A stretch of DNA of 64,000 nucleotides, taken from positions 352-64,351 of the forward strand of contig JBBTYD010000002.1 in NCBI GenBank assembly GCA_038061925.1, in the 5' to 3' direction. Origin of the DNA: Patescibacteria group bacterium (GTDB taxonomy: Bacteria; Patescibacteriota; Minisyncoccia; Phycocordibacterales; UBA9973). A model generated the notes under the pieces. That model was not told the DNA's origin and searched no databases. It worked only from the letters and a program-made list of their open reading frames with translations. A program made the position numbers and the translations under genes. Positions 1 through 57,004 of the stretch are shown here, in pieces. Position 1 is the stretch's first letter. Every line of letters starts with the position of its first letter.

Positions 1-505
1 TATCGATCTTTAAGAGTATTTAGCCTTAGCGGTTAGTTCCGCTGGATTCCCCCCGGCCATTCATGTCCTGGGGTACTCAAGAATAACAATAAAAGAGATA
101 AATTATTTTCGCTCACGGGACTATCACCCTCTATGGTGTCGCTTTCCAGCAACTTAAGCTAATAACTTATTTTTTGACTCTTCTAGAAAATCTACATTGT
201 CATCTTACAACCCTAAGAGTATTGCTACTCTCAGTTTGGGCTTCTTCCTTTTCGCTCGCCGCTACTGGGGAAATGCATATTTGTCTCTACTCCTCCTGGT
301 ACTGAGATGTTTCACTTCCCAGGGTCTGCTTTTTTATCATAAAGATAAAAATTGTTGAGGTGTACTCAACAGGGTTTCCCCATTCGGAAATCTCCGGATC
401 AAAGGTTGCTAAGCACCTCCCCGAAGCTTATCGCAGCAACGCCACGTCCTTCATCGCCTCTTAAAGTCAAGGCATCCACCGTACGCCCTTAAATTTCCTG
501 TTAAG
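1..505 (-). rRNA. rrl: 23S ribosomal RNA, 5' ~500 nt; the gene continues beyond the window start
   Basis: The reverse complement contains canonical 23S 5'-domain strings AAGGGCGTACGGTGGATGCCTTGAC, GGCGATGAAGGACGTGG, GATTTCCGAATGGGGAAACCC, GAAACATCTCAGTACC and CCCAGTAGCGGCGAGCGAA. The mature 5' end lies near position 500. Confidence 0.9.
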
Positions 506-7324: not shown

Positions 7325-7550
7325 ATTCTAATAATTTTATCCCACTTTGCCAAAGCTTCGCGGGACGAGCTAATAATAAATAAACCTGATAATGATAATA
7401 ATTTTCCTCAATTGCCTAATAGTGCCCTTAAGGAAATGCACTGTTAGATAATTCAAGATGACAAAAAAGTATTCGACACTTTAATGCGTTATTAATTATA
7501 CAACAAAGAAAAATATTAGAACACAATAGAAAGTGGGGATAACTCCCAAA

Positions 7551-9667: not shown

Positions 9668-12600
9668 TTATGAAGGATTTACGTGTGAGAGACCGAAGAT
9701 GTCACCCTTGAAAACGTAGTCTGCTTCATTGTAATCAGCAGTACCAGCGTTAATACTGAATTCAAGGTTAGCGGCAGCGTCGTCGCTGAGCCATGGCTGT
9801 AGAGTGTTGCCATCGGTAGTAAGACCACCGGTGTTAACATAAATCGTTACCGTTTCACTACCGCCAGATGGAATAGTAAGTGTACTATCCGCAAAGAGAA
9901 CTGAAGCAGAGGTGCTACCAGTTGTTGCAGCCATGTTAACTGTGTCAAGCAGAGTTCCTTCAGCATCACGAAGCGTTACAGCGTCAGTTGCTGTTGTCAA
10001 TGTGCCTGAAATCTCAAAGTTAATCTTGAGCGTGTCATCACTGTCAAAAGTAACGTCTTTGTTACCCATATTTGTGATAAGAAGTCGGCCCGCGACATAG
10101 TTAGCATTTGCTCCAAGAACAGTTGATACTCCTGCGTTATTGAATTCAACTTTTGGATATGTCTCATAAGCGGTGTGTGTAGCGGCGTCAACACTTGTCT
10201 GTGTTGAGTCTACAGCAGAACCGGAAGCAAGACCCGTGGTATCAATATCACCAGCAGCGTCAACGGTAGTAATAAGAGTATCACCATTTACGAATCCTGT
10301 GCCATCAATATCATTCAAGATAACTTTAACAGTCACAAGCTTGTAATCACTAGCTGGAATGACGAGAGAGCCCGTAGATGGGAATACTTCTGCAAGACCT
10401 GCGCTAGGAACTACTGTTCCGAGAAGCGTAGAGCCATTGTAGAACTTGTAAGAAGCTACAACGTCATCGCCACTTGTACCATCATCCGTAATCTTAATAC
10501 TGTCAACATTCAAGTTTTCAGTATTATTGGCAGCCAGTCTGAATACAGCAACTGTTTGTTCAGCTGAAGTATCGAGAAGCAAAGCCGCGGTAGGAGATGA
10601 AGAGTCAACAGAAACCGTCAGCGTACCGCCGGCAGAAACAGTCATTACTTGACCTGCGCCTGAAGGAGTGAGAGTAACTGATGTTCCGGTAGTCTTACCA
10701 TTTGCGGTAACATCACCAGAGTCAGTATCTATACTGATAGCGAATGTATCACTTGTAGTAGCGCTAGCAGAAAGGTCGGCAATTATAGCGATATTTACCG
10801 AACCATTCTTGGTAACACTAACAATCGGATTAAGATTGAAGGTCAGAAGAGCGTCTCCATCAGCGGTGCCGGTGAATTGCTTTGTATCTCCAATTTTCGT
10901 TTCATACACATCGCCTCGAGTGCTCAAAGCTGACGTCAAGTCTGCCCAGATTTCAACATTATCCACGTCTTGCGCGCCGGAAGCAGTAGTTGTATCTAAT
11001 TCGTCCACAGTGTTCTCCACAACGATAGTGGAGACATTTACGTCTTCACCAGAGTTGGAAGCGGACAATGTAGCCGTAGCCCAGATGAAGTCTTGCTGAC
11101 CCTTGACGACACTGCGAGCCGCAGGAGTCGTGTTGGTGACAGCAGTAAGAGCAGCAGCTTGAACTACCATAGTATTACCGGAAACAGCTGAAGTAGGACT
11201 TGGAGTGACAGAGTCATTGGAAGTCATACCTTTCGCCACGATACCAGTTGAAGGAGCGTCAAGATCAATCTTGATAGTGTCGCCAAGGGAAACAGCAGAC
11301 GCAAGATTTGCGGTTACCTTAACTTTCGTCACACCAACAGGAAGGATAACAACATCCGTAAATGTCACATCTTCCGTGCCTGTGATTAAGTCTTTAGGAC
11401 CGGCAAGCAAAGCGCCTGTCGTAGCGTCAACCAACTTAACATTGGTGACTTCATCATAAGTCATCGTAGCTAAAGTGGTATCAACATTGATGGAAGTAAG
11501 CTTCATTGGTTCACCCAATACTTGGAAGTCAAATGTTGCCAAATGCACATCCGAACCGGAACTAATATTGCCGGCTGCCGGAGTGGAAGACGACTTAGTG
11601 ACGGTGAGCGAACCAGCTTGAATTGTCTGGTTGCTTCCGCCTTGACCGTTAGTCAAAGAGTTCGTAGGTGTGATGTAGAAACCGTAAGTATTACCTACAA
11701 CTTGAACACGGACATCAGAACCGTCAGTAAGGTCTGCGTTTACAGTCAAGCTTGAGCCGGAAACGATGTCAACACGAACTTCAAACCTTCGAGTCTCGCC
11801 TTTTTCAAGGACGATATTCAAATTATTGAAAGTTGCCAAACCGTTTGCGTCCCAAGAAGCGGCTGTGCCGAGAGTGACCGCTTTGGAAACATCAAAAAGC
11901 TCAATGTTTGCGATATCTGAAGAAGAAGCCGTACCTTGTCTTTCAACGGCAATCTGTTTGACTGTCACCGCTTCAACTGAACCGGATGTCAATTTGAATT
12001 TATTAAGAACTACGTCTGTAGCACCGCCGTCCGGCTGTGAGTCTGTAACTGTTCCATCTTCATCAGCAGTCAATACGCCGATATCAAGAAGCACGGTACC
12101 CATAAGGTTACCCTTAACTGGGAATGAACCGCCGACTGTGACATTTGCTATTACATCGGAAGCTACATCAATACCAAGAGCCACACTTTTACCACCAACT
12201 GTAGCGTTAACTATACCTGCGCGAATGTAAAAAGATTTTACAGTGTTAGCTGGGATAGTTAGAGCTGGAGAGAAGGTAATCTGTGCTTTATTGTTAGTGT
12301 TTAGACTTCCAGATGAAGAAACCTGCACCATGTCCTCATCAAGAATCTTGATGTTTTCAACATCAGAATTGATAGAGAGACCATAGCGAGTCACATACAA
12401 GCTGGTAATGGAAACAGCTGTAGGGCCAGCACTGATTGTGAACTTTGTAAAGTTCGCATTGCCAGCGTCTGGAACTGTGCCGGAAGCTGGGTTGTCAGCC
12501 GCAAGCGCAACTGCAGCAACTCCAGAAGACACAACTACACCCGTGGAACATGATGCGCCAGTCGTAGAACTAAATCCGGAAGCGGAAGTACAACCGGCTG

Positions 12601-13057
12601 GAAGTGTCGTGCTGACTACAGCCGTACATGCTTGACCCGTCGTAGGACTAAATCCGGAAGCGGAAGCACAACCGGCTGGAAATGTCGTGCTGACTACTAA
12701 AGCCGTACATGCTATACCAGTCGTAGAACTAAATCCGGAAGCGGAAGCACAACCGGCTGGAAATGTCGTGCTGACCGCGCCACCTGTAAGGGCAGTTCGG
12801 GACTTAGCACCGAATATTCCATCGGCTACTAAACCTACGCTAGACTGCCAAGCGACAACAGCAGCTTTGGTTATGTTGCCAAAGATTCCATCAACTGGAG
12901 AGACACCAAGAGCTGTTTGAAGTTCCGTTACTTGAGTGCCCTTTGAACCTTTTCTCAAAGTGGAAGTGATAGTTGCATCAGCTGAACTTGTTGTAACAAC
13001 AAAAGCTAGAAGCATTACCATCCCTAAAAGAAATTTTAATTTTAATAATTTACTCAT
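9668..13057 (-). CDS. Very large secreted cell-surface protein: signal peptide, PG-binding domain, Cys-containing tandem repeats, many Ig/Big-like beta domains
   Basis: 1129 aa. N-terminal signal, then LRKGSKGTQVTELQTALGV...VADGIFGAKSRTAL (PG_binding_1-like). Three tandem copies of VSTTFPAGCASASGFS(S/P)TTG(I/Q)ACTA. The rest is Thr/Ser/Val-rich beta-strand domains. Confidence 0.75.
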   Translation of the reverse strand: MSKLLKLKFLLGMVMLLAFVVTTSSADATITSTLRKGSKGTQVTELQTALGVSPVDGIFGNITKAAVVAWQSSVGLVADGIFGAKSRTALTGGAVSTTFPAGCASASGFSSTTGIACTALVVSTTFPAGCASASGFSPTTGQACTAVVSTTLPAGCTSASGFSSTTGASCSTGVVVSSGVAAVALAADNPASGTVPDAGNANFTKFTISAGPTAVSITSLYVTRYGLSINSDVENIKILDEDMVQVSSSGSLNTNNKAQITFSPALTIPANTVKSFYIRAGIVNATVGGKSVALGIDVASDVIANVTVGGSFPVKGNLMGTVLLDIGVLTADEDGTVTDSQPDGGATDVVLNKFKLTSGSVEAVTVKQIAVERQGTASSSDIANIELFDVSKAVTLGTAASWDANGLATFNNLNIVLEKGETRRFEVRVDIVSGSSLTVNADLTDGSDVRVQVVGNTYGFYITPTNSLTNGQGGSNQTIQAGSLTVTKSSSTPAAGNISSGSDVHLATFDFQVLGEPMKLTSINVDTTLATMTYDEVTNVKLVDATTGALLAGPKDLITGTEDVTFTDVVILPVGVTKVKVTANLASAVSLGDTIKIDLDAPSTGIVAKGMTSNDSVTPSPTSAVSGNTMVVQAAALTAVTNTTPAARSVVKGQQDFIWATATLSASNSGEDVNVSTIVVENTVDELDTTTASGAQDVDNVEIWADLTSALSTRGDVYETKIGDTKQFTGTADGDALLTFNLNPIVSVTKNGSVNIAIIADLSASATTSDTFAISIDTDSGDVTANGKTTGTSVTLTPSGAGQVMTVSAGGTLTVSVDSSSPTAALLLDTSAEQTVAVFRLAANNTENLNVDSIKITDDGTSGDDVVASYKFYNGSTLLGTVVPSAGLAEVFPSTGSLVIPASDYKLVTVKVILNDIDGTGFVNGDTLITTVDAAGDIDTTGLASGSAVDSTQTSVDAATHTAYETYPKVEFNNAGVSTVLGANANYVAGRLLITNMGNKDVTFDSDDTLKINFEISGTLTTATDAVTLRDAEGTLLDTVNMAATTGSTSASVLFADSTLTIPSGGSETVTIYVNTGGLTTDGNTLQPWLSDDAAANLEFSINAGTADYNEADYVFKGDIFGLSHVNPS
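12530..12795. repeat. Three tandem ~78-nt direct repeats inside CDS 9668..13057
   Basis: Near-identical units ...GTCGTAGAACTAAATCCGGAAGCGGAAGCACAACCGGCTGGAAATGTCGTGCTGAC... repeated three times; they encode the 26-aa Cys-containing repeat. Confidence 0.85.
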
Positions 13058-13582
13058 AAATTTTTTCTAATTTTTATCCTGCAGTGAAATTTTTTTAAAA
13101 TTTTACTGCGGGATTTTACGCCATTAATTAGTTTCGACAAAACTAAAAGCGTAATTTTTTTCTATCTTTATTTTCTATTCGCTAATAAATAATAATTAAA
13201 AACAATTTGTAATGCAACGAATAAATAAATAAAGAACAGATGTTTACTTAATTGAAAACCGAACAAAAAACTTTTATTCAATTTTCAATGACCATCCATT
13301 TTCACTGAACTATCATTTGAGATTTTTTCGACGAAATCGCAAACGAGAATTAAAGTGAAAACAAATATAAATTCTGTGAATACAGAACGCATTATGCCCA
13401 GCATGATTTTGCTAAATCAAATGCGCATCCGCAAACACTAAGGACATTATAATATATAGCTCAAAGAAAGAGCAATATATTATGTGGATAACTCACTTTT
13501 GGGTGAATAGAAACCACCTGCCAATACTCTCATATTTTTAAGTAAAATGCAAGAAATGGGTTAGGTTTGAAGCTGGGTCCTA

Positions 13583-25517: not shown

Positions 25518-26120
25518 TCATAAATTAAATTCCCTTCGAAGATTCTTGTCATTTTCGATGCTATCCGCAATTATATAAATTAAATCTCTACCTACTTTAA
25601 AATCTACTTTGAGCAACATTATCAAATCTTCACAATCATAAGGATAAACCCATACACTATCTTGTAAACGAACAAAACCTATCTGCCTTAAAGTATGTCG
25701 AACTCTATTTCTTAAACTTTTCCTTTCCTCTTTAATATCAAAAGTGAGAAGCCGCCATTTCCCATCCCATTTTCTGGGCTTTTTTATTTTGTAATCATTT
25801 ATTTCCAATTGTCGCAATTTTGCTTCGCCTTTCGAGGTCAGCTGTGCAAAATTTCTATTATCTACCTTCTTCCATAAAATTAATTCATTCTTTTTTAACC
25901 TCTCTAAAGAACGATTGAAAGAATATTTACGAAATTTACTTTTCATAAACTCCGGTTCTAATTTACTTAAAATTTTTGTCATTTTTGGGGCTATCAAAGC
26001 GACACCAAGTCCACCTATGACAAAAATTGCAGTCAAAATAGCTTTTTGAAGATTAGCCTTGCGAGTTCTTTTCTTTGATTCTTTTTCTAACTGTCCCATA
26101 TTATTTGTTGCTACTAACAT
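25518..26120 (-). CDS. Hypothetical: N-terminal TM plus winged helix plus Cas2/VapD-like (PaaX-like) core, paralog A
   Basis: 200 aa. ...FAQLTSKGEAKL...WDGKWRLLTFDIKEERKSLRNRVRHTLRQIGFVRLQDSVWVYPYD. It is homologous to CDS 30784..31257 (shared LTSKG, W..LL.FDI.E, LQ.SVW). Confidence 0.5.
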   Translation of the reverse strand: MLVATNNMGQLEKESKKRTRKANLQKAILTAIFVIGGLGVALIAPKMTKILSKLEPEFMKSKFRKYSFNRSLERLKKNELILWKKVDNRNFAQLTSKGEAKLRQLEINDYKIKKPRKWDGKWRLLTFDIKEERKSLRNRVRHTLRQIGFVRLQDSVWVYPYDCEDLIMLLKVDFKVGRDLIYIIADSIENDKNLRREFNL

Positions 26121-26152
26121 TGACTATAAGTATGCTATAGCATTATTATAGT
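26120..26152. promoter_or_regulatory. Conserved 33-nt promoter/operator-like motif with the palindrome ATGCTATAGCAT (copy 2)
   Basis: TTGACTATAAGTATGCTATAGCATTATTATAGT: 28 of 33 nt identical to copy 1. It abuts the start codon of paralog A. Confidence 0.5.
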
Positions 26153-29601: not shown

Positions 29602-30183
29602 CTATAAATGTGTCTCTTTAAGCGCCTTGTTTATTTGGCGCAATACCTTGGTCCTATCTCTGGAAACTTCAAACACTAGATTTTCCTCAAACGGAGATTT
29701 GATAAGATTTTGGAGTATTTCATTTTCGCCTATATATCCCAAATTATTTAGTATACGCAAAATGATAATTGTTTCAATATTAAGCAAGTCTTCTTTTGTT
29801 ACGCTTTTTTCTAAAATAAATAGACCTTGGAGTAAATCAACAAACAGGGCTTCATTCGGTTCAATGCCGGCCAGTAGACGTTTTAATAAGCGCGCAATAT
29901 TCGCAAAAATTTTAAAAGTTTCCGGTGTTTTAATAATTTGTTCTAACACATTTGTTTTTGATGCATTCGTCACCCGAAAGATATTCCTACCTTGCACGAA
30001 ATCAATTTTAAGATATGCAAAATCTTGCAAAACAAAACGCAATTTTGAAGACATCTTCCGCACCCCCGAGGCCGTGGCCGTGATCATACCCAAATTACGA
30101 GTAAAAATAGAATAATATTTTCCGGCTTCGCCAAAATTACGACTGTCTAATATTATTCCTTCTGTGTGAAAAATGTGGTGCAT
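29602..30183 (-). CDS. recO: DNA repair protein RecO (short)
   Basis: 193 aa. N-terminal OB-fold pattern M..TEGIILDSRNFGEAGKYYSIFTRNLGMITATASGVRK...LQDFAYLKIDFVQG matches RecO. Confidence 0.7.
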   Translation of the reverse strand: MHHIFHTEGIILDSRNFGEAGKYYSIFTRNLGMITATASGVRKMSSKLRFVLQDFAYLKIDFVQGRNIFRVTNASKTNVLEQIIKTPETFKIFANIARLLKRLLAGIEPNEALFVDLLQGLFILEKSVTKEDLLNIETIIILRILNNLGYIGENEILQNLIKSPFEENLVFEVSRDRTKVLRQINKALKETHL

Positions 30184-30188
30184 GAGAA

Positions 30189-30695
30189 TTACAATGAATG
30201 ACCTATCGGATTTGCAATGGGTTTTGTTAAACTTTTTATATCATTGGTATTAATCAGAAAAATACCAAGTTTGCCCTCAAGAGTATACAGAGTCACGTGG
30301 GTAGGTGGATATTCTACCTCTAATCCATATTTTTTATTTATAATTTCAAAGAATTTATCCAGATTTAACACTTTACACATAACGACTACTGTTTTTAGAT
30401 CATTTTTTTCAGCAAATCTAAATTCCTCAGTATAATTTAAAATATCTATATCATTTTTTTCTACAAAATCACAAAAATCTGTCACTACTAAATTTTTAAA
30501 GTCAGGAATTGAGATCTTGTATTTTTTTATAATTTCACTAATACACACCAAACTAACATGAAAAGAGGACTTTAATGATAATGTATTGTTATCTATTCCC
30601 ACTTCTTTCGGTAAATTTTCTAATGAAACTGGTAATCCAATAGTATTGGTTGCTGAAATTGTATATTTATTGCCACAAATAAATTTTCTTTCCAT
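30189..30695 (-). CDS. 2H phosphoesterase superfamily protein (LigT/ThpR-like 2',3'-cyclic phosphodiesterase candidate)
   Basis: 168 aa with two H-x-[ST]-x motifs about 88 residues apart (SFHVSLV ... PTHVTLY), the hallmark of 2H phosphoesterases. The size matches LigT (~180 aa). Confidence 0.5.
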   Translation of the reverse strand: MERKFICGNKYTISATNTIGLPVSLENLPKEVGIDNNTLSLKSSFHVSLVCISEIIKKYKISIPDFKNLVVTDFCDFVEKNDIDILNYTEEFRFAEKNDLKTVVVMCKVLNLDKFFEIINKKYGLEVEYPPTHVTLYTLEGKLGIFLINTNDIKSLTKPIANPIGHSL

Positions 30696-30783: not shown

Positions 30784-31257
30784 TTAACTAATTCTTGAAA
30801 TCTTAAGCATTTTCAAATGGTCTTGAAGCTTTATTTTCTTAATATAATCAAGAAACTCTTTTGGTAACGGAGAAGGTCCTCGCCAGACGCTTTTCTGAAT
30901 TAGAACATAGTTAAATTTTTTGAGATGCCACCTAAGCCATTCCCTCTCAGCTTTTTTAGCCTCTGGTATATCAAACATAATTAGCAAATTTTTAGAGTCA
31001 TTTTTTAAGAAAGGAGAATTGAATTGGATTAAAGAATCATATTTTTCTGCAAGATACTTTTTTCCTTTGGAGGTCAAAAACCATGCAGAACCACTCTTGG
31101 CGATATATTTTTTCTTTCTTAATTGGCTGATTCCAGATTTAAGAGATCCATATTTATACAAAGATAATTTTGGCAAACCAAATAAATTCACATGCGTACC
31201 TTTGTAAGGGATGGTAGTATGACTTAATTCTTCTAAAATGTTCGATATGATAGACAT
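30784..31257 (-). CDS. Hypothetical: winged helix plus Cas2/VapD-like (PaaX-like) core, paralog B
   Basis: 157 aa. ...WFLTSKGKKYL...NLLIMFDIPEAKKAEREWLRWHLKKFNYVLIQKSVWRGP. It is homologous to CDS 25518..26120. Confidence 0.5.
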   Translation of the reverse strand: MSIISNILEELSHTTIPYKGTHVNLFGLPKLSLYKYGSLKSGISQLRKKKYIAKSGSAWFLTSKGKKYLAEKYDSLIQFNSPFLKNDSKNLLIMFDIPEAKKAEREWLRWHLKKFNYVLIQKSVWRGPSPLPKEFLDYIKKIKLQDHLKMLKISRIS

Positions 31258-31437: not shown

Positions 31438-34400
31438 TTATTTTTCAATTTTTACCTTAAAAACCAATTCATCTATTTTAATTTCTTTGCCATCATTTTT
31501 TTTAAATTCTAGCTCAGATGCCAGAACAGTTTTTTTTAGATCAGCTTCAAATTTTTTTATCAATTTTTTACCCAAGTCATTTGTTTCAAAAGTGAGTGAA
31601 ACAATATCGTTTGGCGTCAATCCAATTTCTTTCCTCATATCTTGTAAAGCCCGCGCCAATTCGCGATAGTTCCCTTCTTGTTTTAATTCCGGAGTTATGT
31701 TTATGTCAAGAACAACTTCGGCTTTGATATTTTTATTCTGTTTTACTTCTTTTACGTTCAATTCATCTTTTAAAAGCTTAATATATTCTTCTCCTAAGTC
31801 AAAATTTTTAACTTCCAATTTATTTAGGGGCTGACGAACTTGAATTTTTTCTTTTTGACGAGCTTCAAGCCCAAAAGAAGCAATAGCGCGAACTATTCTC
31901 ATTTCATCTATGATTTTTCTATTTATTTTCCCCGCTTCTGGCCATTTTCCCAAATGCACGCTTTCTGCATCTTTCTCGTTTTTCAATTTCAACCAGATAT
32001 CTTCCGCCGTGAATGGTGCAAAAGGAGCCATAATTTTAGCCACAGTTTTTAAAATAAAATATAAAGTTTGTTTGGCCTCGCCCGGAGATCTACGGCCGAG
32101 AGCTTTTTTGCCCTCTTCCTTGATTCGCTCACGAGAACGACGCAAGTACCAGATCGAAAGATCTTCTATAAAATTTTCAATCGGGCGAGAAGCTTCATTT
32201 ATATCGTATGTTTCCATGCCATCTGTAACTTCACTTATTAGTTGATTCAGGCGCGCCAAAATCCACTGATCGAGCATATTAGAACTGAACTTTGAATTAC
32301 CAGTCGCAATTTCTAGCGAACGATCACGGTACAATTCATAAAAAGAAACCACATTACCAAGTCGTCCTATTATTTTGCTCGAAATTTCTTGGACCGATTT
32401 TTCTGAAAAATTCACATCTTCTCCTTTCATTAACGGACTAGTCATTAAATAAATACGCAATGCATCAACCCCGTATTTGTCTATAAATATCCACGGATCC
32501 GGATAGTTCTTTTTTGATTTTGATATTTTTTGACCATCCGAAGCAAGGAGGGTGCCAGTCGTGACAACATTGTCAAATGGCGCGTGCTTAAAAAGAACAG
32601 TGGAAAGAACATGAGTATAGTAAAACCACGTTCTGGTCTGAGCAATATATTCAGCCACGAAACCAGCCGGAAAATTATTTTTCTGCCAATCCGGATTCTC
32701 AAATGGATAATGATCTTGAGCAAAAGGCATAGAGCCAGATTCGAACCAAGAATCAAGAACTTCCGGCACTCTCTTCATTTCGGATTGGCAATGGCAGATA
32801 AGTTTCAGGTTGTCGATATAGGGTCGATGATAATCAAGTTCATAATCGGAATTATGTGGAATAGGAATAAAATTAACGACTCTATATTCCGCATTTGCAA
32901 AAAGATGAAATTGGCCAGACACTCCTTTCTCAACTTCTTCTGAATGTCTGAATAATCCGCCAGTCATAGAAATAGACTCATTGACATTATATCCATTCAA
33001 TATAGAAAAAAGCATCCAAAGCGGAGCCCCGTGTGAAATTATTAGTATATTTTTGTTCTGGTATTTTTCTTCAAATTCATAAAAGATATTTCCGACTCTC
33101 TTTTTCACATCAAGCAATGATTCTCCGCCATGAATCGGATTTAAAAACCTTTCTCTGGCGTTTTTAAACATACTCTTATACTCATCCCAAGGTTTGCCTT
33201 CAAAATCTCCCGCATCTAATTCTCCCAATCTTTTATCAAAAATCACTTGCTCATCTTTTAACCCCAAGCTTTCTTTTAAAACATGGAACGTCTCGCGAGT
33301 ACGCATAAAAGGCGAAACAAAAACAAGATCAATATTTTTATTTTTTAATTCTTTGGCAGTTTTTTGCACTTGTTCCTCTCCATTTTTCGTCAAATGGTCG
33401 ATATTTTCCACCAGAGAAGAGACGACGCCATGCAGATTGCTTTTGACATTACTTTCTGCTTCCCCATGGCGCATCACAAAATATTTATTATTGGACTTTT
33501 TTGTTTTGGCTTTCAGATCGGAAAGAGAACCGATAAAAATTTTCTCCGCGCATTTTAGACACTTCCAAACAGGCAAGGGTGAAGCCCAGTAACGGTTTCT
33601 GGAGACATTCCAATCAGGCGCATTTTCAACTATATTTTTAAATCTTCCTTCTTTTAAATGTGGAGGAACCCAGCGCATTGCATTCGCTTTTTGAATTATT
33701 TGTTTCTTGACTTTTTGAATATTTATAAACCAAGAAGACAACGCATAATAAATAATTGGCGTGTCACAACGCATACAATGTGGATATGAATGGATTATTT
33801 TTTCTTTCTCAAAATAGGCTCCTGTTTTTTGTAAATATTTAATCACTTCAATGTCCGCCCGCAGATGAGCGTCTTTGTCTTCCGGCGTATCTTTCGGTTT
33901 TACTTTCAAGCCGGCAAAATCCGTCACTTCCTTTTTAAATCTACCTGTCTCATCCACGTGAATAATCCAAGGGAGGTCATTCTGCTTGGCGAGATTCATA
34001 TCGTCTTCTCCGAAAGCGGACGCTTCGTGCGCCAGACCCGTGCCTTTTTCGGTAGTCACAAAGTCCGCATGCCAAACTTTCCAAATATTTTTTTTATTCG
34101 GCAGATCAATATTTTGATAATATGGGAAAACCGGTTTGTATTTTTTGCCCAATAAATCTTTTCCTTTAACTTCACCCAATATAGAATATTCCTTATCTTT
34201 CAACACGCTTTGCAATGTTTCTTGGGCCAGAATCAACATATTGTTCCCTATTTTTATTTTTACATAAGAAATATCTTTATTGACCGCAATCGCGGTATTC
34301 CCGGGCAAAGTCCATGGAGTCGTAGTCCACGTAAGAAAGTATGTACCGGGTTCATCTTCCAACTCAAATTTTACATAAACAGAAATATCCGTAATATCTT

Positions 34401-35004
34401 TATAACTGTTATCCATCGCTATTTCAGAGTTCGCTATGGGTGTTTCACACCTCGCGCAATAAGCCAAAACCTTCACCCCCTCATAAATAAGACCTTTTTT
34501 ATTTAATTCACTAAATGCCCACCAAACGGATTCAATAAAAGTATTGTCCATCGTTTTGTAACCACCGCGAAAATCCACCCATCTTCCGATGCGCTCTACC
34601 CCGCTTTCCCATTTTTTGTCATATTGTAAAACTTTACTGCGCGCGTGTTCCACAAAAAGATCTATGCCAAACTTTTCTATCTCCTGATGTCCAGCAATAT
34701 TCAAATCTTTTTCAACAATATTCTCAATCGGCAAACCATGACAATCCCAACCCCATTTTCTAAGAACACGATAGCCTCTCATGGTTTGATAGCGCGCGAT
34801 CGCATCTTTGGCTGTACTACCTAAAATATGTCCATAATGCATGAGCCCGGTGGCAAAAGGCGGGCCATCATAAAAAACATAGTTGCCTTTCGGAGCCTTT
34901 TTAATCAAAGACTTTTCAAAAATTTTATTTTCTTTCCAAAACTTCAAAACAGCTTCTTCGCGAAGAGCCACCTCTGACTTTTTTGTTGTACTTTTATTTT
35001 CCAT
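31438..35004 (-). CDS. ileS: Isoleucyl-tRNA synthetase with an embedded histidine-phosphatase (PGAM-like) domain
   Basis: Class I core (PPFATGLMHYGHIL, CP1 editing domain, KISKSKKN = KMSKS). A continuous in-frame ~180-aa segment KYFVMRHGEAESN...SPFMRTRETF...ILIISHGAPLWML (RHG, R and SHG catalytic motifs of histidine phosphatases) sits between the zinc-knuckle cysteine pairs CLKC and CHC. The start is taken at Met-10 (MENKSTTKK), 5 nt after the argS stop. Confidence 0.9.
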   Translation of the reverse strand: MENKSTTKKSEVALREEAVLKFWKENKIFEKSLIKKAPKGNYVFYDGPPFATGLMHYGHILGSTAKDAIARYQTMRGYRVLRKWGWDCHGLPIENIVEKDLNIAGHQEIEKFGIDLFVEHARSKVLQYDKKWESGVERIGRWVDFRGGYKTMDNTFIESVWWAFSELNKKGLIYEGVKVLAYCARCETPIANSEIAMDNSYKDITDISVYVKFELEDEPGTYFLTWTTTPWTLPGNTAIAVNKDISYVKIKIGNNMLILAQETLQSVLKDKEYSILGEVKGKDLLGKKYKPVFPYYQNIDLPNKKNIWKVWHADFVTTEKGTGLAHEASAFGEDDMNLAKQNDLPWIIHVDETGRFKKEVTDFAGLKVKPKDTPEDKDAHLRADIEVIKYLQKTGAYFEKEKIIHSYPHCMRCDTPIIYYALSSWFINIQKVKKQIIQKANAMRWVPPHLKEGRFKNIVENAPDWNVSRNRYWASPLPVWKCLKCAEKIFIGSLSDLKAKTKKSNNKYFVMRHGEAESNVKSNLHGVVSSLVENIDHLTKNGEEQVQKTAKELKNKNIDLVFVSPFMRTRETFHVLKESLGLKDEQVIFDKRLGELDAGDFEGKPWDEYKSMFKNARERFLNPIHGGESLLDVKKRVGNIFYEFEEKYQNKNILIISHGAPLWMLFSILNGYNVNESISMTGGLFRHSEEVEKGVSGQFHLFANAEYRVVNFIPIPHNSDYELDYHRPYIDNLKLICHCQSEMKRVPEVLDSWFESGSMPFAQDHYPFENPDWQKNNFPAGFVAEYIAQTRTWFYYTHVLSTVLFKHAPFDNVVTTGTLLASDGQKISKSKKNYPDPWIFIDKYGVDALRIYLMTSPLMKGEDVNFSEKSVQEISSKIIGRLGNVVSFYELYRDRSLEIATGNSKFSSNMLDQWILARLNQLISEVTDGMETYDINEASRPIENFIEDLSIWYLRRSRERIKEEGKKALGRRSPGEAKQTLYFILKTVAKIMAPFAPFTAEDIWLKLKNEKDAESVHLGKWPEAGKINRKIIDEMRIVRAIASFGLEARQKEKIQVRQPLNKLEVKNFDLGEEYIKLLKDELNVKEVKQNKNIKAEVVLDINITPELKQEGNYRELARALQDMRKEIGLTPNDIVSLTFETNDLGKKLIKKFEADLKKTVLASELEFKKNDGKEIKIDELVFKVKIEK
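32962..33489 (-). other. Histidine phosphatase (phosphoglycerate-mutase-like) domain inserted within ileS
   Basis: Residues ~515-690 of the IleRS ORF: RHGEAESN ... RTRET ... SHGAPL. Confidence 0.8.
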
Positions 35005-35008
35005 TCTA

Positions 35009-36733
35009 TTACATCTTCTCCGGGACAACAATACCGAGCAGATGGAGGCCTGTTTTCATCACGAAAGTAAAGGCATAGGTTAAAGCCACTTTGTAGGCTG
35101 AAGTTTTATCTCTCTTGTCCACGATGGATATATTGCCATAAAAACTATTAAACGCGCGGGCCACTTCTATCAAATAATTCGCAATGTAATGCGGTTCATA
35201 TTCTCTCGCCGATCGTAACACGATTTCAGGAAATCGGTATAATAATTTTTCTACTTCAAAAATTTCAGGCGGGAAAGCCTGAGGGTCTGGAAGGATATCT
35301 TCCTTTTTCGCTTTTTCCAAAACGGAATTTGCGCGAACGTAAGAATATTGCAGATACGGGCCAGAATCTCCTTCAAAAGAAATAGATTCTTCAAAATTAT
35401 AAATAATGTCTCCACCAGTTGCTTGCTTGAGCACTGAATATTTTATGGCCGAGACGCCGACATCGGAAGCAATTTTCTTTCTTTCTTTTTCAGAAAAATT
35501 ACGCTCTTTTATTTTTTCTCCGATTAGTGAAATAGTGTCTCGAATGAGCGACTCTCCAGTCACCGTGTTGCCTTTGCGAGAACTCATTTTACCATCAGCC
35601 AACTTCATCATCCCATGGGTTATATGAAACATTTTTTTCTCATGCTCAGGATGAATTAAGGAAATAACTTTGGCAACCACTTTCATATAATCCGCTTGTT
35701 CATTGGCAGTAACAACAATTGATAAATTCATATCCGGGTCTGTATTAAATTTCTCTTCTGTTAATCCCAGCTCTTTAGTCTCATAAGTGGGCAAACCCTC
35801 CGAAGTGATAAAAACTCGAGTGTGTAGCTTCGGATCATGTTTTTCAGCCTTAAATACAATAGCCCCGTCTGACTTTTCAAAAACTTTGCCTAAATTATCT
35901 TTAACAATCCTCTCCCCAATCGGCGCCATCTGGCTCTCTAGGAAATAGAATTCGAATTTTGTACCGAGAACTCTATATAAATCTTCGAAGGCTTTCATTG
36001 TCACCTTGAAACCCCAATTATATATTTCATTTATTTTTTTGTCAGTTTTATCATAAATTTTTTTATTTATCTTATCTATTTCTTTTTTTGCCACAAGCTG
36101 ACTGACCGAATTACTTTCATAAGCTTGGGCGCCTTGCGTGTAAGCTTTTCCTATGTTGGCCGCTTGGATAATAGAAGAGCTTTTTTTGTCTTGTAATTTT
36201 TTATCTTTCAAAAGACTATATATGGCTTTCGCCACATGAAGCCCAACATCGCCCTGATAATTGGCCCGAGACACTTCCGCTCCTGAATGTTCTAAGATTC
36301 TCGCCATTGATTCACCAATCGCGTTTGTCATCAAATGCCCAATATGAAAAGGTTTAAAAGGATTCGGGTCGGTATATTCAATCATTATTTTCTGGTCAAT
36401 CAAAACATCATTTTTCCCAACATTTTCTCCCTTATTCAAAATTTCTTCAACATTTTCAGCAAAAAATTTACGGGCTAAAAAAAAATTTATAAAACCTGGG
36501 TCGGCCAGATCTATTTTTCCAATTTCTTTTGACAATTTTTTTTCGAGTTCTCTTTTTATTTTCTCCGCCAGTTCTTTTGGATTTATTTTTGATTTTTTAG
36601 CACAAACCATAGCCACATTCGTGGAGTAATCTCCATTTTTAAAATCTTCCGGATGTTCCACCACAAAATTAGATTCTTCTATTTTCAGATTTCTAAGAAT
36701 TTTTTTTATTAAATTTTTTATTTTTTCTGGCAT
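35009..36733 (-). CDS. argS: Arginyl-tRNA synthetase
   Basis: 574 aa. N-terminal Arg_tRNA_synt_N-like domain, HIGHLMTNAIGESMARILE (HIGH), KMSSRKGNTV (KMSKS-like), and a C-terminal DALR anticodon-binding domain. Confidence 0.9.
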   Translation of the reverse strand: MPEKIKNLIKKILRNLKIEESNFVVEHPEDFKNGDYSTNVAMVCAKKSKINPKELAEKIKRELEKKLSKEIGKIDLADPGFINFFLARKFFAENVEEILNKGENVGKNDVLIDQKIMIEYTDPNPFKPFHIGHLMTNAIGESMARILEHSGAEVSRANYQGDVGLHVAKAIYSLLKDKKLQDKKSSSIIQAANIGKAYTQGAQAYESNSVSQLVAKKEIDKINKKIYDKTDKKINEIYNWGFKVTMKAFEDLYRVLGTKFEFYFLESQMAPIGERIVKDNLGKVFEKSDGAIVFKAEKHDPKLHTRVFITSEGLPTYETKELGLTEEKFNTDPDMNLSIVVTANEQADYMKVVAKVISLIHPEHEKKMFHITHGMMKLADGKMSSRKGNTVTGESLIRDTISLIGEKIKERNFSEKERKKIASDVGVSAIKYSVLKQATGGDIIYNFEESISFEGDSGPYLQYSYVRANSVLEKAKKEDILPDPQAFPPEIFEVEKLLYRFPEIVLRSAREYEPHYIANYLIEVARAFNSFYGNISIVDKRDKTSAYKVALTYAFTFVMKTGLHLLGIVVPEKM

Positions 36734-46946: not shown

Positions 46947-48686
46947 TTATTGAACTTCTTTCCAGGATGTTATGCCCCACCCACCCGAAGGCCCATTCAC
47001 AAAATTAGCGTTAACTAACCCGCTATCATAAATCACGATAGCATTATTGTTTAAATGAATATATTTACCATTTAAAGATTTTGCAATGGCATTATTGCTT
47101 AAATTAACTGTGCCATTAGCAGCATATAATATAACAGCTCCGCCATTGTTTGATAGTGTTATAGCTTCCGTTGAAGTGGAAGTGGAAAGCACCATTAAAT
47201 AACTCCCAGCAGAACCTGAGCCGTCGAACACAGCATTATTGCCTATATTTACAATACCATCCACAACTATGACGCCTTCCGAAGTGTCATAACTAGATGA
47301 AAGACTTACAGTGGCATTATTACTAACGTTTACATTGCCACGCACCCAAAGGGTCCCGGTTACAGTAAGGTGAGCGCCATTGCTTACAGAGAGATCCCCG
47401 GTAATTTCCTTTGGCCCTAAAGAAGAATCGCTACCAGCTGTGTAATTCCCAGAATAGACCCCCCCTGCTGTTCCTTCATTTTTCCAATCTAAAATATTTT
47501 GATCAGAAATGGGCATCGCAACTTGAGTTGGATCTGAGAGTGTTGTGTTGCAAGATTTATTATTACCGCTCCCAGTTTGACAATAATTTATACCAGCGAT
47601 ATTTGAATTATTAACTGTATGAGCGTAGGCATTGCCTACGCCACCCGTCCCGACAGTTATACCACTGATAAGACCCGTCAAACCACCAAGATATAAATTA
47701 AAAAAACCATCAAGATTAGACGGGCTGGTATTATTCCAGGTTCCAGAATACGCGCCAATTTTACCGGCTCCATTTGAATATTCGTTATTATTTGCGCCAA
47801 TCATATAATATCTTGTTGAATTCGTAGACCCGTCAATCACAATCCAATAGGTTGCACCCGCCGTTAATTCTGGGTTAGAAGAAAATGGAACATCCACCCA
47901 ACCATAGGTGGTAGACACTAAAGAAGCAGAAAGAGGGCCAGATGCCAAAGTGGTCGTACTCGGACTTCCACTTGAATCTGATACAATCCTGATAGTCAAA
48001 TTAGAAGGAGTGCTAATTTTTTTAAGATAGAGTTTTACCTTATTCACTACTTCCGTTACGCTTACTTGAAAACTTTGGGCAAAATCTTGTGTCCCATTTG
48101 CATTTCCAAAAATAATATCATAAGAAGGTACACCAGAACCATTCATCTGATCTGCCGTAAGCGCTTCCGAATTAGCGGATAAAGCAGTACCAGTGATAGA
48201 TCCTGATCCTGTGATACTTCCATTTGAATAAACACTGCCATTCACAGAAGAATTATTCTCCATAGTGAAACCACCCAGACCGGTCTGTACGCCATAACTA
48301 AAAGAAACTCCTACGCCAGTATTTAAGACAAGCTCGCTTTTTCTTTGACGAGAATCAACATCTCCCAAAGAAGAAATGGTCTTTTCGTTATAACCAGAAT
48401 CACTTATCGTAGCGGTGGCTGAATTATTTTCTAAAGTAATTGTATTTGTTAAACCTATAGCTTTACCCGTCTTGAGACGGAAATATGAATCTTCCGCCGC
48501 CGACTCAGAAAGAAAGAAACTCCGTTGAGATTTTATCAAATTATTAACAGTTCTAAATTCGCGCACTGAAGGCCCCACCAGTCCGGAAATTATAGCTAAA
48601 GATATAAAAAGAAAAAAGATGACAGATATCAACATTGCCGCGCCACCGTTTTTTTTAATTTTTTTAAAATCTTTTTTCATAATCAA
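46947..48686 (-). CDS. Large pilus-associated secreted protein (pseudopilin or tip-adhesin candidate)
   Basis: 579 aa. An N-terminal pilin-like hydrophobic segment, then an Asn/Ser/Gly/Thr-rich beta-rich domain. It is the last gene of the pilus block. Confidence 0.45.
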   Translation of the reverse strand: MIMKKDFKKIKKNGGAAMLISVIFFLFISLAIISGLVGPSVREFRTVNNLIKSQRSFFLSESAAEDSYFRLKTGKAIGLTNTITLENNSATATISDSGYNEKTISSLGDVDSRQRKSELVLNTGVGVSFSYGVQTGLGGFTMENNSSVNGSVYSNGSITGSGSITGTALSANSEALTADQMNGSGVPSYDIIFGNANGTQDFAQSFQVSVTEVVNKVKLYLKKISTPSNLTIRIVSDSSGSPSTTTLASGPLSASLVSTTYGWVDVPFSSNPELTAGATYWIVIDGSTNSTRYYMIGANNNEYSNGAGKIGAYSGTWNNTSPSNLDGFFNLYLGGLTGLISGITVGTGGVGNAYAHTVNNSNIAGINYCQTGSGNNKSCNTTLSDPTQVAMPISDQNILDWKNEGTAGGVYSGNYTAGSDSSLGPKEITGDLSVSNGAHLTVTGTLWVRGNVNVSNNATVSLSSSYDTSEGVIVVDGIVNIGNNAVFDGSGSAGSYLMVLSTSTSTEAITLSNNGGAVILYAANGTVNLSNNAIAKSLNGKYIHLNNNAIVIYDSGLVNANFVNGPSGGWGITSWKEVQ

Positions 48687-49189
48687 TAACTGCCTCTTAA
48701 CACAATTGTATCGTAAAAATCCTGCGTCCGATCCAATGCGTCATTGGCAGATTTAACTGTTAAAAATATTTTCACCGCTTTGCCTTTTGTTGTGGTTATT
48801 TGCGTAAATGTTAGAGCGGTGACTGTAATATTGGGCGAATTTAAATTTCCTATATTGTTACCGGCATCCCAAAGTTCTATATTGGGGCTGATAAACTTAA
48901 ATTCTACAGTTTTATCTGAACCAGTAGAGTCTTTAGCACTAAGCGTTAAATCATCAACACCAATAGAACTAATATCGTTAGCTTGTCTGATTTCTCTAGA
49001 CATTCTTTCCATAATCGATCCACTTTGCAAAAGTTCGGCCTGTAATGTAGTCTCTCGAAACGCGTGGGTCATTATCACCATTGAATTGATTACCACCATA
49101 GACAGAAGAACAAAAAAAGAAATATAAAAAAGAAGTTCTAATACTGCATAACCATTTTCTTTTTTATTATTTTTGTTAATTTTAATCAT
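48683..49189 (-). CDS. Type IV pilin-like protein (minor pilin)
   Basis: Start at MIKINKNNKKENG|YAVLELLFYISFFVLL (prepilin-type leader with G at -1 and E at +5). Confidence 0.55.
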   Translation of the reverse strand: MIKINKNNKKENGYAVLELLFYISFFVLLSMVVINSMVIMTHAFRETTLQAELLQSGSIMERMSREIRQANDISSIGVDDLTLSAKDSTGSDKTVEFKFISPNIELWDAGNNIGNLNSPNITVTALTFTQITTTKGKAVKIFLTVKSANDALDRTQDFYDTIVLRGSY

Positions 49190-56947: not shown

Positions 56948-57004
56948 GGTAAAATAAATTATTATAAAGTAACTTGTCCCGTTGCAACGGGATGAAATAA
57001 AAAT

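What the first reader, a model, noticed from the sequence alone, without database searches (positions are those of the whole stretch)
32790..33552. Isoleucyl-tRNA synthetase with a complete histidine-phosphatase (phosphoglycerate-mutase-like) domain inserted in its zinc-knuckle loop
The 1188-aa IleRS ORF is continuous with no stops or frameshifts. Between the first cysteine pair (CLKC, right after WNVSRNRYWASPLPVW) and the second (CHC, just before VPEVLDSWFESGS) it carries about 250 extra residues. These include all three catalytic signatures of branch-1 histidine phosphatases: RHGE(A)ESN, SPFMRTRET and the C-terminal SHG. In canonical IleRS this loop is only about 40-60 residues. The domain is full length with catalytic residues intact, so a functional accessory activity is plausible; its role is unknown (tRNA or RNA end dephosphorylation, nucleotide turnover, or a moonlighting role). 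I am not aware of a phosphatase insertion at this position as a described IleRS architecture.
Basis: seen in the sequence. Interest (0 to 1): 0.65.

Follow-up and report, generated by a model that had tools for sequence, protein, structure and literature searches.

The report
Phosphatase nested inside isoleucyl-tRNA synthetase
An essential protein-synthesis enzyme (isoleucyl-tRNA synthetase) of an uncultivated ultra-small bacterium carries a complete, apparently active phosphatase enzyme spliced into one of its surface loops, and in related bacteria the same phosphatase is instead a separate gene sitting directly in front of the synthetase gene, which points to an undescribed partnership between the two enzymes.

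Summary
Window 31438..35004 (-) is one uninterrupted 1188-aa type-2 IleRS. A complete His_Phos_1 domain (Pfam E=1.8e-30) is nested in its CP3 zinc-knuckle loop, about 216 residues more than the ~35-aa canonical loop. It is not an assembly artefact. The identical protein is GenBank MEK7539047.1, seen on 6 contigs, and over 100 distinct 50%-identity clusters of Patescibacteria IleRS share the insert at the same site. The phosphatase catalytic residues (R512, H513, R568, E595, H658) and the IleRS HIGH, KMSKS and editing motifs are all conserved.

The closest stand-alone relatives of the insert are encoded directly upstream of an insert-free ileS, in the window's synteny (argS–phosphatase–ileS–recO). 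In 76 informative metagenome loci the phosphatase is adjacent to ileS in 51, nested in 15, and unlinked in about 5. Peribacteria IleRS carries two copies. Gracilibacteria ValRS carries one to four, including at the equivalent site.

My best reading is an IleRS-dedicated accessory phosphatase (about 0.55). The main rival is an unrelated metabolite phosphatase that was co-inherited and nested by chance (about 0.35). The substrate is unknown. I found no published description.

The parts
31438..35004 (-). ileS::His_Phos_1 gene: 1188 codons plus stop, with the ATG at 35004. An upstream in-frame TTG at 35031 would overlap argS.
   Evidence: NCBIfam ileS 830 bits against a 621 cut-off; GenBank MEK7539047.1
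33508..35004 (-). IleRS N-terminal part (residues 1-499). It holds Rossmann half 1 with HYGH (34828..34839), the CP1 editing domain with WTTTPWTLPGN (34297..34329) and GTGLAHEASAFGEDD (34000..34044), CP2, and the WNVSRNRYWASPLPVW strand.
33550..33561 (-). First zinc-knuckle cysteine pair, CLKC (residues 482-485), in the CP3 subdomain.
32839..33507 (-). Nested histidine-phosphatase domain with its linkers (residues 500-722). It is equivalent to the whole 188-195-aa stand-alone protein.
   Evidence: Pfam His_Phos_1 at 509-676, E=1.8e-30; alignments; AF2 models; Foldseek match to PspA, PhoE and others
33466..33471 (-). R512-H513 of the RHG motif. H513 is the predicted phospho-accepting nucleophile.
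   Evidence: invariant in 38/38 complete nested copies and 63/63 separate copies
33301..33303 (-). R568, the second phosphate-binding arginine (SPFMR motif).
   Evidence: 41/41 nested and 63/63 separate
33220..33222 (-). E595, the predicted general acid/base (LGELDAG).
   Evidence: E or D in 41/41 nested and 63/63 separate
33031..33033 (-). H658, the second catalytic histidine (SHG).
   Evidence: 41/41 nested and 63/63 separate
32812..32868 (-). C-terminal linker and return into CP3: IPIPHNSDY-ELDYHRPYID (residues 713-731). Nested copies on divergent IleRS backbones share this linker motif.
32788..32796 (-). Second zinc-knuckle cysteine pair, CHC (residues 737-739).
31441..32838 (-). IleRS C-terminal part (residues 723-1188). 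It holds DSWFESGS (32731..32754), KISKS (32515..32529), the anticodon-binding domain and the type-2 C-terminal DUF5915 domain.
35009..36733 (-). argS directly upstream, 4 nt from the ileS ATG. In sister lineages the separate phosphatase gene lies between argS and ileS.
29602..30183 (-). recO, the downstream member of the conserved argS-(phosphatase)-ileS-recO block.

Best explanation
This is a genuine bifunctional gene. Shown: a functional-looking type-2 IleRS carries a complete branch-1 histidine phosphatase nested in its CP3 zinc-knuckle subdomain, and both catalytic centres are conserved. Shown: the phosphatase belongs to a Patescibacteria clade that is almost always tied to ileS. It is either a separate gene immediately upstream (argS-phosphatase-ileS-recO) or nested inside IleRS at one fixed position. 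The two arrangements are mutually exclusive in every locus examined. Established for the family: catalysis runs through a phospho-histidine intermediate. Applied here, H513 attacks a phosphomonoester held by R512, R568 and H658, and E595 protonates the leaving group. Inferred (about 0.55): the phosphatase is a dedicated accessory of the synthetase, not an unrelated enzyme. It probably docks at or near CP3 when encoded separately, which would explain why it was captured there. Most speculative step: it removes an inhibitory phosphate that blocks Ile-tRNA formation. My ranking is a phosphorylated or pyrophosphorylated tRNA 3' end (about 0.2), a phosphorylated residue of the synthetase itself (about 0.1), or a small phosphorylated metabolite or by-product handled at the enzyme (about 0.25).
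For: Architecture and integrity. Recurrence: dozens of Patescibacteria fragments; 17-22 GTDB species representatives with continuous ORFs; 68 of the 150 best 50%-cluster representatives have IleRS on both sides of the domain and 36 more on one side. Catalytic residues are invariant in 38-41 nested and 63 separate copies. The IleRS HIGH, KMSKS and editing motifs are invariant. The AF2 model is confident (pLDDT 88.5, pTM 0.83) and both linkers are at pLDDT 90 or above, which suggests a fixed rather than floppy domain. Linkage: the three closest stand-alone relatives are each 4-10 nt upstream of an insert-free ileS. In 80 metagenome loci, 49 plus 2 are adjacent, 15 nested, 5 nearby, and about 5 unlinked. 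All 23 nested loci lack a separate copy, and 57 non-CPR IleRS2 loci have no such gene within 4 kb. The association persists across very divergent IleRS backbones with the states interleaved, at bootstrap 78-94. Repeated capture: two domains in Peribacteria IleRS, and one to four domains in Gracilibacteria ValRS, including the equivalent site between WWGHRIPVW and DTWFSS. Precedents that phosphorylation can block charging: toxSAS enzymes pyrophosphorylate tRNA CCA ends (PMC11559606; bioRxiv 10.1101/2021.04.30.441581), and HipA/HipT kinases inactivate the class I synthetases GltX and TrpS (PMC6581861).
Against: No substrate is identified. The nearest solved folds are all small-metabolite phosphatases at only 20-24% identity: PspA, GpgP, a riboflavin-pathway HFP, PhoE, TIGAR and CobC. 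The domain is not basic (30 K+R against 32 D+E in 223 aa), which is not what an RNA-binding module would usually look like. The argS-ileS-recO block also contains functionally unrelated genes (dut, recO), and the argS-phosphatase junction is as tight as the phosphatase-ileS junction. Adjacency could therefore be inherited gene order. Published IleRS-tRNA structures report no tRNA contact for CP3. I could not measure the distance from the phosphatase site to the synthetic site because model coordinates are not exposed.
Confidence: 0.55

Rival explanations
1. The domain is an independent housekeeping metabolite phosphatase (PhoE-, PspA- or CobC-like). Its gene happened to lie in the conserved argS-ileS block and was moved into a permissive surface loop of IleRS by a local rearrangement, such as duplication followed by deletion. 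The two activities would be unrelated, and the fusion persists only because it is hard to undo and guarantees co-expression.
For: The closest sequence and fold neighbours are all small-molecule phosphatases. The conserved synteny includes unrelated genes (dut, tmk, recO, glyS). The argS-phosphatase junction is as tight as the phosphatase-ileS junction. A few copies sit in other contexts, for example next to secA in L152. CP3 varies in fold and zinc content among IleRSs, so it is plausibly permissive. The zinc cysteines are lost in about half of the nested forms.
Against: The same domain family was captured at the equivalent site of ValRS in another lineage, and twice or more within single IleRS or ValRS proteins. 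Linkage to ileS survives replacement or divergence of the IleRS backbone. The domain misses every metabolic equivalog cut-off: dPGM 24-70 bits against 82-225, PspA 70 against 350, CobC 85 against 163.
Confidence: 0.35
2. The nested domain is a non-catalytic structural or regulatory module. It might be a ligand sensor, or a dimerisation or stabilising element that replaces the zinc knuckle, and it merely retains the phosphatase fold.
For: The zinc cysteines are dispensable in many nested forms. Histidine phosphatases are commonly dimers (general knowledge of the family). The tandem pairs in Peribacteria could form an internal dimer.
Against: All five catalytic residues are invariant across nested copies that are only 35-50% identical overall. 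A pure scaffold would not be expected to keep them.
Confidence: 0.06
3. The feature is an artefact: a chimeric assembly, or an unnoticed frameshift or stop that in reality separates a phosphatase gene from ileS.
For: Some public relatives are fragmented into several gene calls (L001, L002, L019).
Against: The window ORF is continuous. The identical protein is found on 6 contigs and is deposited in GenBank. Continuous ORFs with the same junctions occur in dozens of independent assemblies. IleRS sequence resumes in frame after the domain. The fragmented cases are noisy assemblies or code-25 organisms.
Confidence: 0.01

Closest known systems
Type-2 (eukaryote/archaeal-like, mupirocin-resistant type) IleRS, e.g. 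Priestia megaterium IleRS2 (PDB 8C8V) and Thermus thermophilus IleRS (1ILE)
   Same: It has the same overall fold (TM 0.84-0.93), the type-2 C-terminal domains (DUF5915), HIGH and KMSKS, the CP1 editing motifs, and a CxxC...CxC zinc motif in CP3 as in T. thermophilus.
   Different: It carries about 216 extra residues forming a second enzyme inside CP3. Solved and described IleRSs have a CP3 of about 35-60 residues.
Metal-independent phosphoserine phosphatase PspA of Hydrogenobacter thermophilus (PDB 4IJ5/4IJ6), with PhoE (1H2E), Rv2419c GpgP (4PZ9) and CobC (6E4B)
   Same: The fold and the catalytic residues (Arg-His, Arg, Glu, His) of branch-1 histidine phosphatases are the same. PspA is the best sequence hit (E=8e-13) and the best fold hit (TM 0.77).
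   Different: Identity is only 20-24%. The NCBIfam equivalog cut-offs are missed by a wide margin. Those enzymes are free-standing metabolic enzymes, not linked to or nested in a synthetase.
NCBIfam NF040702 'ileS_w_GNAT' (IleRS containing an N-acetyltransferase domain)
   Same: It is a precedent for an IleRS that carries an additional enzyme domain.
   Different: The extra domain is from a different family. The window protein scores 305 bits against a cut-off of 1999, so it is not a member. I did not determine where the GNAT domain sits in that family.
Bifunctional proteins with a His_Phos_1 domain fused to another enzyme: RNase H/acid phosphatase (NCBIfam NF005567, Rv2228c type) and PFK-2/FBPase-2
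   Same: A branch-1 histidine phosphatase is joined to a second catalytic domain. NF005567 is the second-best NCBIfam hit for the insert (76 bits).
   Different: Those are end-to-end fusions. Here the phosphatase is inserted inside the host's catalytic domain, and the score is far below the 326-bit cut-off.

Membership tests
Isoleucine-tRNA ligase (NCBIfam TIGR00392 equivalog; type 2) | Whole-protein score above the curated equivalog cut-off | tested here: met
   830.2 bits against a cut-off of 621.4, matched in two stretches around the insert
Isoleucine-tRNA ligase (NCBIfam TIGR00392 equivalog; type 2) | Class I signature motifs HIGH and KMSKS | tested here: met
   HYGH at residues 56-59 and KISKS at 826-830. 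K826, S828 and K829 are invariant in 27 nested homologues.
Isoleucine-tRNA ligase (NCBIfam TIGR00392 equivalog; type 2) | CP1 editing domain with the Thr-rich peptide and the conserved Asp | tested here: met
   W226-TTTPWTLP and G321xGxxH326...D335 are invariant
Isoleucine-tRNA ligase (NCBIfam TIGR00392 equivalog; type 2) | Type-2 fold and C-terminal domains | tested here: met
   Anticodon_1 and DUF5915. Foldseek TM 0.84 to P. megaterium IleRS2 and 0.93 to 1ILE, better than to IleRS1 at about 0.77.
Isoleucine-tRNA ligase (NCBIfam TIGR00392 equivalog; type 2) | Ile-specific aminoacylation of tRNA-Ile | not testable with these tools
   Needs an enzyme assay
Histidine phosphatase superfamily branch 1 (Pfam PF00300) | Score above the Pfam gathering threshold | tested here: met
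   106.5 bits against 21.7, E=1.8e-30, residues 509-676
Histidine phosphatase superfamily branch 1 (Pfam PF00300) | Catalytic set: RHG Arg-His, second Arg, acid Glu, second His | tested here: met
   R512, H513, R568, E595 and H658 are present and conserved in 38-41 of 41 nested copies and 63 of 63 separate copies
Histidine phosphatase superfamily branch 1 (Pfam PF00300) | Complete alpha/beta fold | tested here: met
   The domain model has pLDDT 83.7. Foldseek gives TM 0.69-0.77 and probability 1.00 to PspA, GpgP, PhoE and CobC.
Histidine phosphatase superfamily branch 1 (Pfam PF00300) | Phosphatase activity through a phospho-histidine intermediate | not testable with these tools
   Needs an enzyme assay with an H513A control
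Cofactor-dependent phosphoglycerate mutase (TIGR01258, NF038349, GpmB NF002901) | Score above the curated cut-off | tested here: not met
   24.2 against 81.7; 69.9 against 225; 57.7 against 261
Phosphoserine phosphatase PspA (NF045917) | Score above the curated cut-off | tested here: not met
   70.5 against 350
Alpha-ribazole phosphatase CobC (TIGR03162) | Score above the curated cut-off | tested here: not met
   85.1 against 162.9
Phosphohistidine phosphatase SixA (TIGR00249) | Score above the curated cut-off | tested here: not met
   41.9 against 74.5, and only the N-terminal half matches
IleRS with GNAT domain (NF040702); mupirocin-resistance MupA/MupB (NF000257/8) | Score above the curated cut-off | tested here: not met
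   305 against 1999; 703 and 734 against 1900

The most novel reading that the evidence does not exclude
The CP3-nested (or operon-partnered) histidine phosphatase is a third catalytic site of class Ia synthetases (IleRS, ValRS) in Patescibacteria. It would unblock translation by removing phosphate or pyrophosphate from the tRNA 3'-terminal adenosine, or from a toxin-phosphorylated residue of the synthetase, immediately before charging. That would be a built-in repair or anti-toxin module coupled to aminoacylation.
Probability: 0.15. Interest if true: 0.9.

Novelty: new variant of a known kind. Interest (0 to 1): 0.68.

Why it matters
Aminoacyl-tRNA synthetases are among the best-studied enzymes. 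Added domains in them have repeatedly revealed new biology, such as editing, signalling and resistance. I found no description of a complete second enzyme nested inside the catalytic domain of a class I synthetase and conserved across a large bacterial radiation, not even in a 2026 survey of about 96,000 IleRS sequences.

The gene-order duality found here (separate upstream gene or nested domain), together with the parallel inserts in ValRS, turns a curiosity into a testable proposal. Patescibacteria may have a synthetase-dedicated phosphatase.

If it acts on tRNA ends or on the synthetase, it would be a new quality-control or anti-toxin step in translation. If it is a metabolic enzyme, it is one that metabolic reconstructions of these organisms miss, because annotation labels the protein only as a tRNA ligase.

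Tried and rejected
- **Chimeric assembly or hidden frameshift:** rejected, because of the identical protein on 6 contigs and dozens of independent continuous ORFs.
- **Apparent split genes (all hits under 600 aa):** traced to fragmented calls on noisy assemblies, and to the search tool listing only hits up to about 1.75 times the query length. These are not real gene fission.
- **Assignment to dPGM, PspA, CobC, SixA or GpmB:** all curated cut-offs are missed.
- **PPi removal as the role:** disfavoured, because the same window encodes a membrane H+-pyrophosphatase.
- **ArgRS as a regular host:** the L106 ArgRS-phosphatase fusion is a singleton among its 120 closest ArgRS relatives.
- **Direction of evolution (nested first or separate first):** NJ trees of the phosphatase and of the IleRS backbone interleave the two states and do not resolve it. 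The separate-gene IleRSs show no excision scar in CP3.
- **Published structures as evidence that CP3 touches tRNA:** nothing is reported.
- **Second copy or paralogue in the window:** none found.
- **RNA elements near the gene:** no Rfam family or tRNA nearby.
- **AlphaFold-DB (afdb50) search for deposited models of the architecture:** the library was unavailable.
- **Literature:** five searches for any description returned nothing relevant.
Full report
**Observation.** The window carries a continuous minus-strand ORF at 31438..35031. It is 1188 aa from the ATG at 35004, four bases after the stop of argS. Pfam places His_Phos_1 at residues 509-676 (E=1.8e-30, 106.5 bits against a 21.7 cut-off). 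It lies between two stretches of tRNA-synt_1 and is followed by Anticodon_1 and DUF5915. The whole protein passes the NCBIfam ileS equivalog cut-off, at 830 bits against 621. There are 251 residues between the two cysteine pairs. Insert-free relatives have about 35 there, so the insert is about 216 residues.

**Not an artefact, not unique.**
- The identical protein is GenBank MEK7539047.1. It is named only "class I tRNA ligase family protein" and was seen on six contigs.
- A search with the insert plus its flanks found dozens of Patescibacteria proteins combining PF00133 and PF00300. The short lengths of those hits come from fragmented gene calls on noisy assemblies and from a length limit of the tool.
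- A scan of GTDB species representatives found the insert in Nomurabacteria, Paceibacteria, Yanofskybacteria, Spechtbacterales and Peregrinibacteria, as continuous ORFs of 1136-1236 aa.
- An exhaustive search of 1.84 billion 50%-identity representatives with the insert alone gave 60 hits at E<1e-30. Of the 150 best clusters, 68 have IleRS sequence on both sides of the domain and 36 more on one side.

**Anatomy.**
- The insertion point is the same everywhere: after the "…GSxxEL…" turn that follows the first cysteine pair, and before "ELDLHRPYID".
- Structural papers call this element the CP3 subdomain. It carries the zinc motif in T. thermophilus IleRS (PMC7191050).
- The nested segment corresponds to the whole stand-alone protein, from "NNKY…RHGEA" to the last beta-strand.
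- In 27 full-length nested homologues, R512, H513, S564, R568, E628 and H658 are invariant and E595 nearly so. The IleRS editing motifs (W226-TTTPWTLP, G321xGxxH326…D335) and K826xSK829 are also invariant, and the HIGH-region residues P55 and H59 are nearly so.
- Over all copies collected, the catalytic residues are present in 38-41 of 41 nested domains and 63 of 63 separate ones.
- The zinc cysteines, in contrast, are lost in about half of the nested forms.
- AlphaFold2 gives a confident full-length model (pLDDT 88.5, pTM 0.83). Both linkers are at 90 or above. Only two surface loops of the domain are weak: 521-530, and 682-700, which is an extra loop specific to the window.
- The backbone matches type-2 IleRS structures: 8C8V at TM 0.84, 1ILE at 0.93, and yeast 8WND.
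- The domain alone matches small phosphatases at 20-24% identity: PspA 4IJ5/6, GpgP 4PZ9, HFP 9MMH, PhoE 1H2E, TIGAR and CobC. It reaches none of the NCBIfam equivalog cut-offs for dPGM, GpmB, PspA, CobC or SixA.

**The key new result: an ileS-linked phosphatase with alternative gene architectures.**
- The three closest stand-alone relatives of the insert (188-191 aa, 42-45% identical) are each encoded 4-10 nt upstream of an insert-free ileS. The order is argS–phosphatase–ileS–(small ORF)–recO–DUF11-like–glyS.
- The window has the same long-range order, glyA–tmk–dut–argS–ileS::phosphatase–…–recO–DUF11-like–glyS. The only difference is where the phosphatase sits.
- In the loci already fetched, 23 of 23 nested loci had no separate copy, and 6 of 6 separate copies lay between argS and ileS. 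Of 58 loci with neither form, 57 are non-CPR type-2 IleRS loci and one is CPR locus L029, where argS and ileS are adjacent; none had such a gene within 4 kb.
- A metagenome scan seeded with the stand-alone proteins returned 80 loci:
  - 49 are directly upstream of ileS on the same strand, plus 2 that my overlap filter missed.
  - 15 are nested.
  - 5 have ileS within 1 kb or convergent.
  - 4 are at contig ends.
  - About 5 have no ileS in the DNA held.
- One of the five has a toxin-antitoxin pair inserted after the phosphatase gene. Another is genuinely elsewhere, next to secA.
- Both junctions of the separate gene are tight. The conserved unit is therefore argS–phosphatase–ileS, and adjacency alone does not prove an IleRS-specific role.

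**Evolution.** NJ trees of the phosphatase and of the IleRS backbone (insert removed, rooted by non-CPR IleRS2) interleave nested and separate states, including in supported clades with bootstrap 78-94. IleRS backbones in these bacteria are very heterogeneous. The nested copies nevertheless share a linker motif (xPxP[HY]Nxx[YG]-ELDLHRPYID), and the separate-gene IleRSs have ordinary CxxC…CxC loops without scars. I read this as one or a few nesting events followed by transfer or recombination among ileS alleles, but the direction is unresolved.

**Repeated capture.**
- Peribacteria and Peregrinibacteria IleRSs carry two phosphatase domains. The second sits a few residues downstream, in place of the second cysteine pair. 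It is only 30-34% identical to the ileS-linked clade.
- Gracilibacteria ValRS carries the same domain family between "WWGHRIPVWY" and "DTLDTWFSS", the equivalent CP3 site. At least 11 clusters show this, on contigs up to 0.94 Mb.
- One ValRS representative has four copies. Fragmented calls there reflect genetic code 25.
- An ArgRS–phosphatase end-to-end fusion exists but is a singleton.

**Mechanism.**
- Shown: both catalytic centres are intact and under constraint. The phosphatase is tied to ileS either as a neighbour or as an insert. The site of insertion is fixed and is reused in ValRS.
- From established knowledge of branch-1 histidine phosphatases: H513 would accept the phosphoryl group, R512, R568 and H658 would bind it, and E595 would act as the general acid.
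- Inferred: functional coupling to the synthetase (about 0.55). The separate protein probably docks near CP3.
- PPi removal is unlikely, since the window encodes an H+-pyrophosphatase.
- Candidate roles are removal of inhibitory phosphate from tRNA 3' ends or from the synthetase. toxSAS pyrophosphorylation of CCA ends is documented (PMC11559606), and HipA/HipT kinases are known to inactivate GltX and TrpS (PMC6581861). A small-molecule substrate is the other candidate.
- Against an RNA substrate: the domain is not basic, its nearest folds are metabolite phosphatases, and no tRNA contact is reported for CP3.
- The main rival (about 0.35) is an unrelated metabolite phosphatase that was co-inherited in a conserved gene block and nested in a permissive loop.

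**Novelty.** Sequences with this architecture are in public databases under generic names. Five literature searches, and a 2026 preprint surveying domain architectures of about 96,000 IleRSs, contain no mention of it. NCBIfam has a model for IleRS with a GNAT domain but none for this architecture. I therefore class it as a new variant of a known kind: a synthetase with an accessory enzyme domain. Its unusual features are domain insertion inside the catalytic domain, an interchangeable operon-partner form, and parallel occurrence in ValRS.

Noticed in passing
L022:2504-6961, L024:1799-6139, L023:2516-6958 (Peribacteria/Peregrinibacteria): These IleRSs are 1447-1486 aa and carry two His_Phos_1 domains in the CP3 region. 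The second is inserted just after 'DLHKETVD' in place of the CxC pair, and is only 30-34% identical to the ileS-linked clade.
   Followed up: partly
P0268-P0276, P0283, P0289, P0159; loci L169:5001-7415 and L170:5001-7562: ValRS of Candidatus Gracilibacteria and relatives carries nested His_Phos_1 between WWGHRIPVWY and DTLDTWFSS, the equivalent CP3 site. P0159 has four copies, one of them before the ISRQ strand. Gene calls are fragmented because these organisms use code 25 (UGA = Gly).
   Followed up: partly
L106:2875-5061 (= P0388): This is an in-frame ArgRS-His_Phos_1 end-to-end fusion caused by loss of the argS stop. The sequence is held by three sources, but it is a singleton among the 120 closest ArgRS relatives.
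   Followed up: yes
P0222 (1066 aa, representative library): An IleRS N-terminal part carries an IS200-like Y1 transposase segment inside the editing region and a nested phosphatase in CP3. A C-terminal GNAT acetyltransferase replaces the rest of IleRS after 'FPFEN'. It may be a rearranged paralogue or a pseudogene.
   Followed up: no
L092:5172-5656: An RHH-antitoxin-like ORF (72 aa) and a RelE/ParE-like ORF (85 aa) are inserted directly after the separate phosphatase gene, where ileS normally follows.
   Followed up: no
window 56996..59044 (+): A membrane H+-translocating pyrophosphatase (PF03030, 902 bits). It is relevant because it makes a PPi-clearing role for the nested phosphatase unnecessary.
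   Followed up: yes
window 30784..31257 (-) and 25521..26123 (-): Two small ORFs with the PaaX central Cas2-like domain (PF20803). One lies directly downstream of ileS. A 168-aa ORF at 30189..30695 has no Pfam match.
   Followed up: no
window 1..502 (-): The 5' end of a 23S rRNA gene, cut by the window edge (Rfam RF02541, 366 bits). No tRNA gene was found in the whole 64 kb.
   Followed up: no
window 32905..32961 (-), residues 682-700: A window-specific extra loop (FRHSEEVEKGVSGQFHLF) inside the phosphatase domain. It is absent from relatives and predicted to be disordered (pLDDT below 50).
   Followed up: no
L083-L168 (IleRS of the separate-gene loci): Parcubacterial IleRS backbones are strikingly heterogeneous. 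One type reads 'KRYWGLALPIFEC…DVGNPWLDAGI' in place of the usual DxWFxSG motif. CPR IleRSs are polyphyletic relative to non-CPR type-2 IleRS in the NJ tree.
   Followed up: partly
window 9671..13066 (-), 46950..48740 (-), 5720..7327 (-): Large ORFs (1132, 597 and 536 aa) with almost no Pfam signal. The 1132-aa protein has only a PG_binding_1 domain.
   Followed up: no
window 31441..35004 (-) / GenBank MEK7539047.1: NCBI's pipeline names the protein only 'class I tRNA ligase family protein', and several fragments 'histidine phosphatase family protein'. Neither IleRS nor the phosphatase would be counted correctly in automated metabolic reconstructions.
   Followed up: yes
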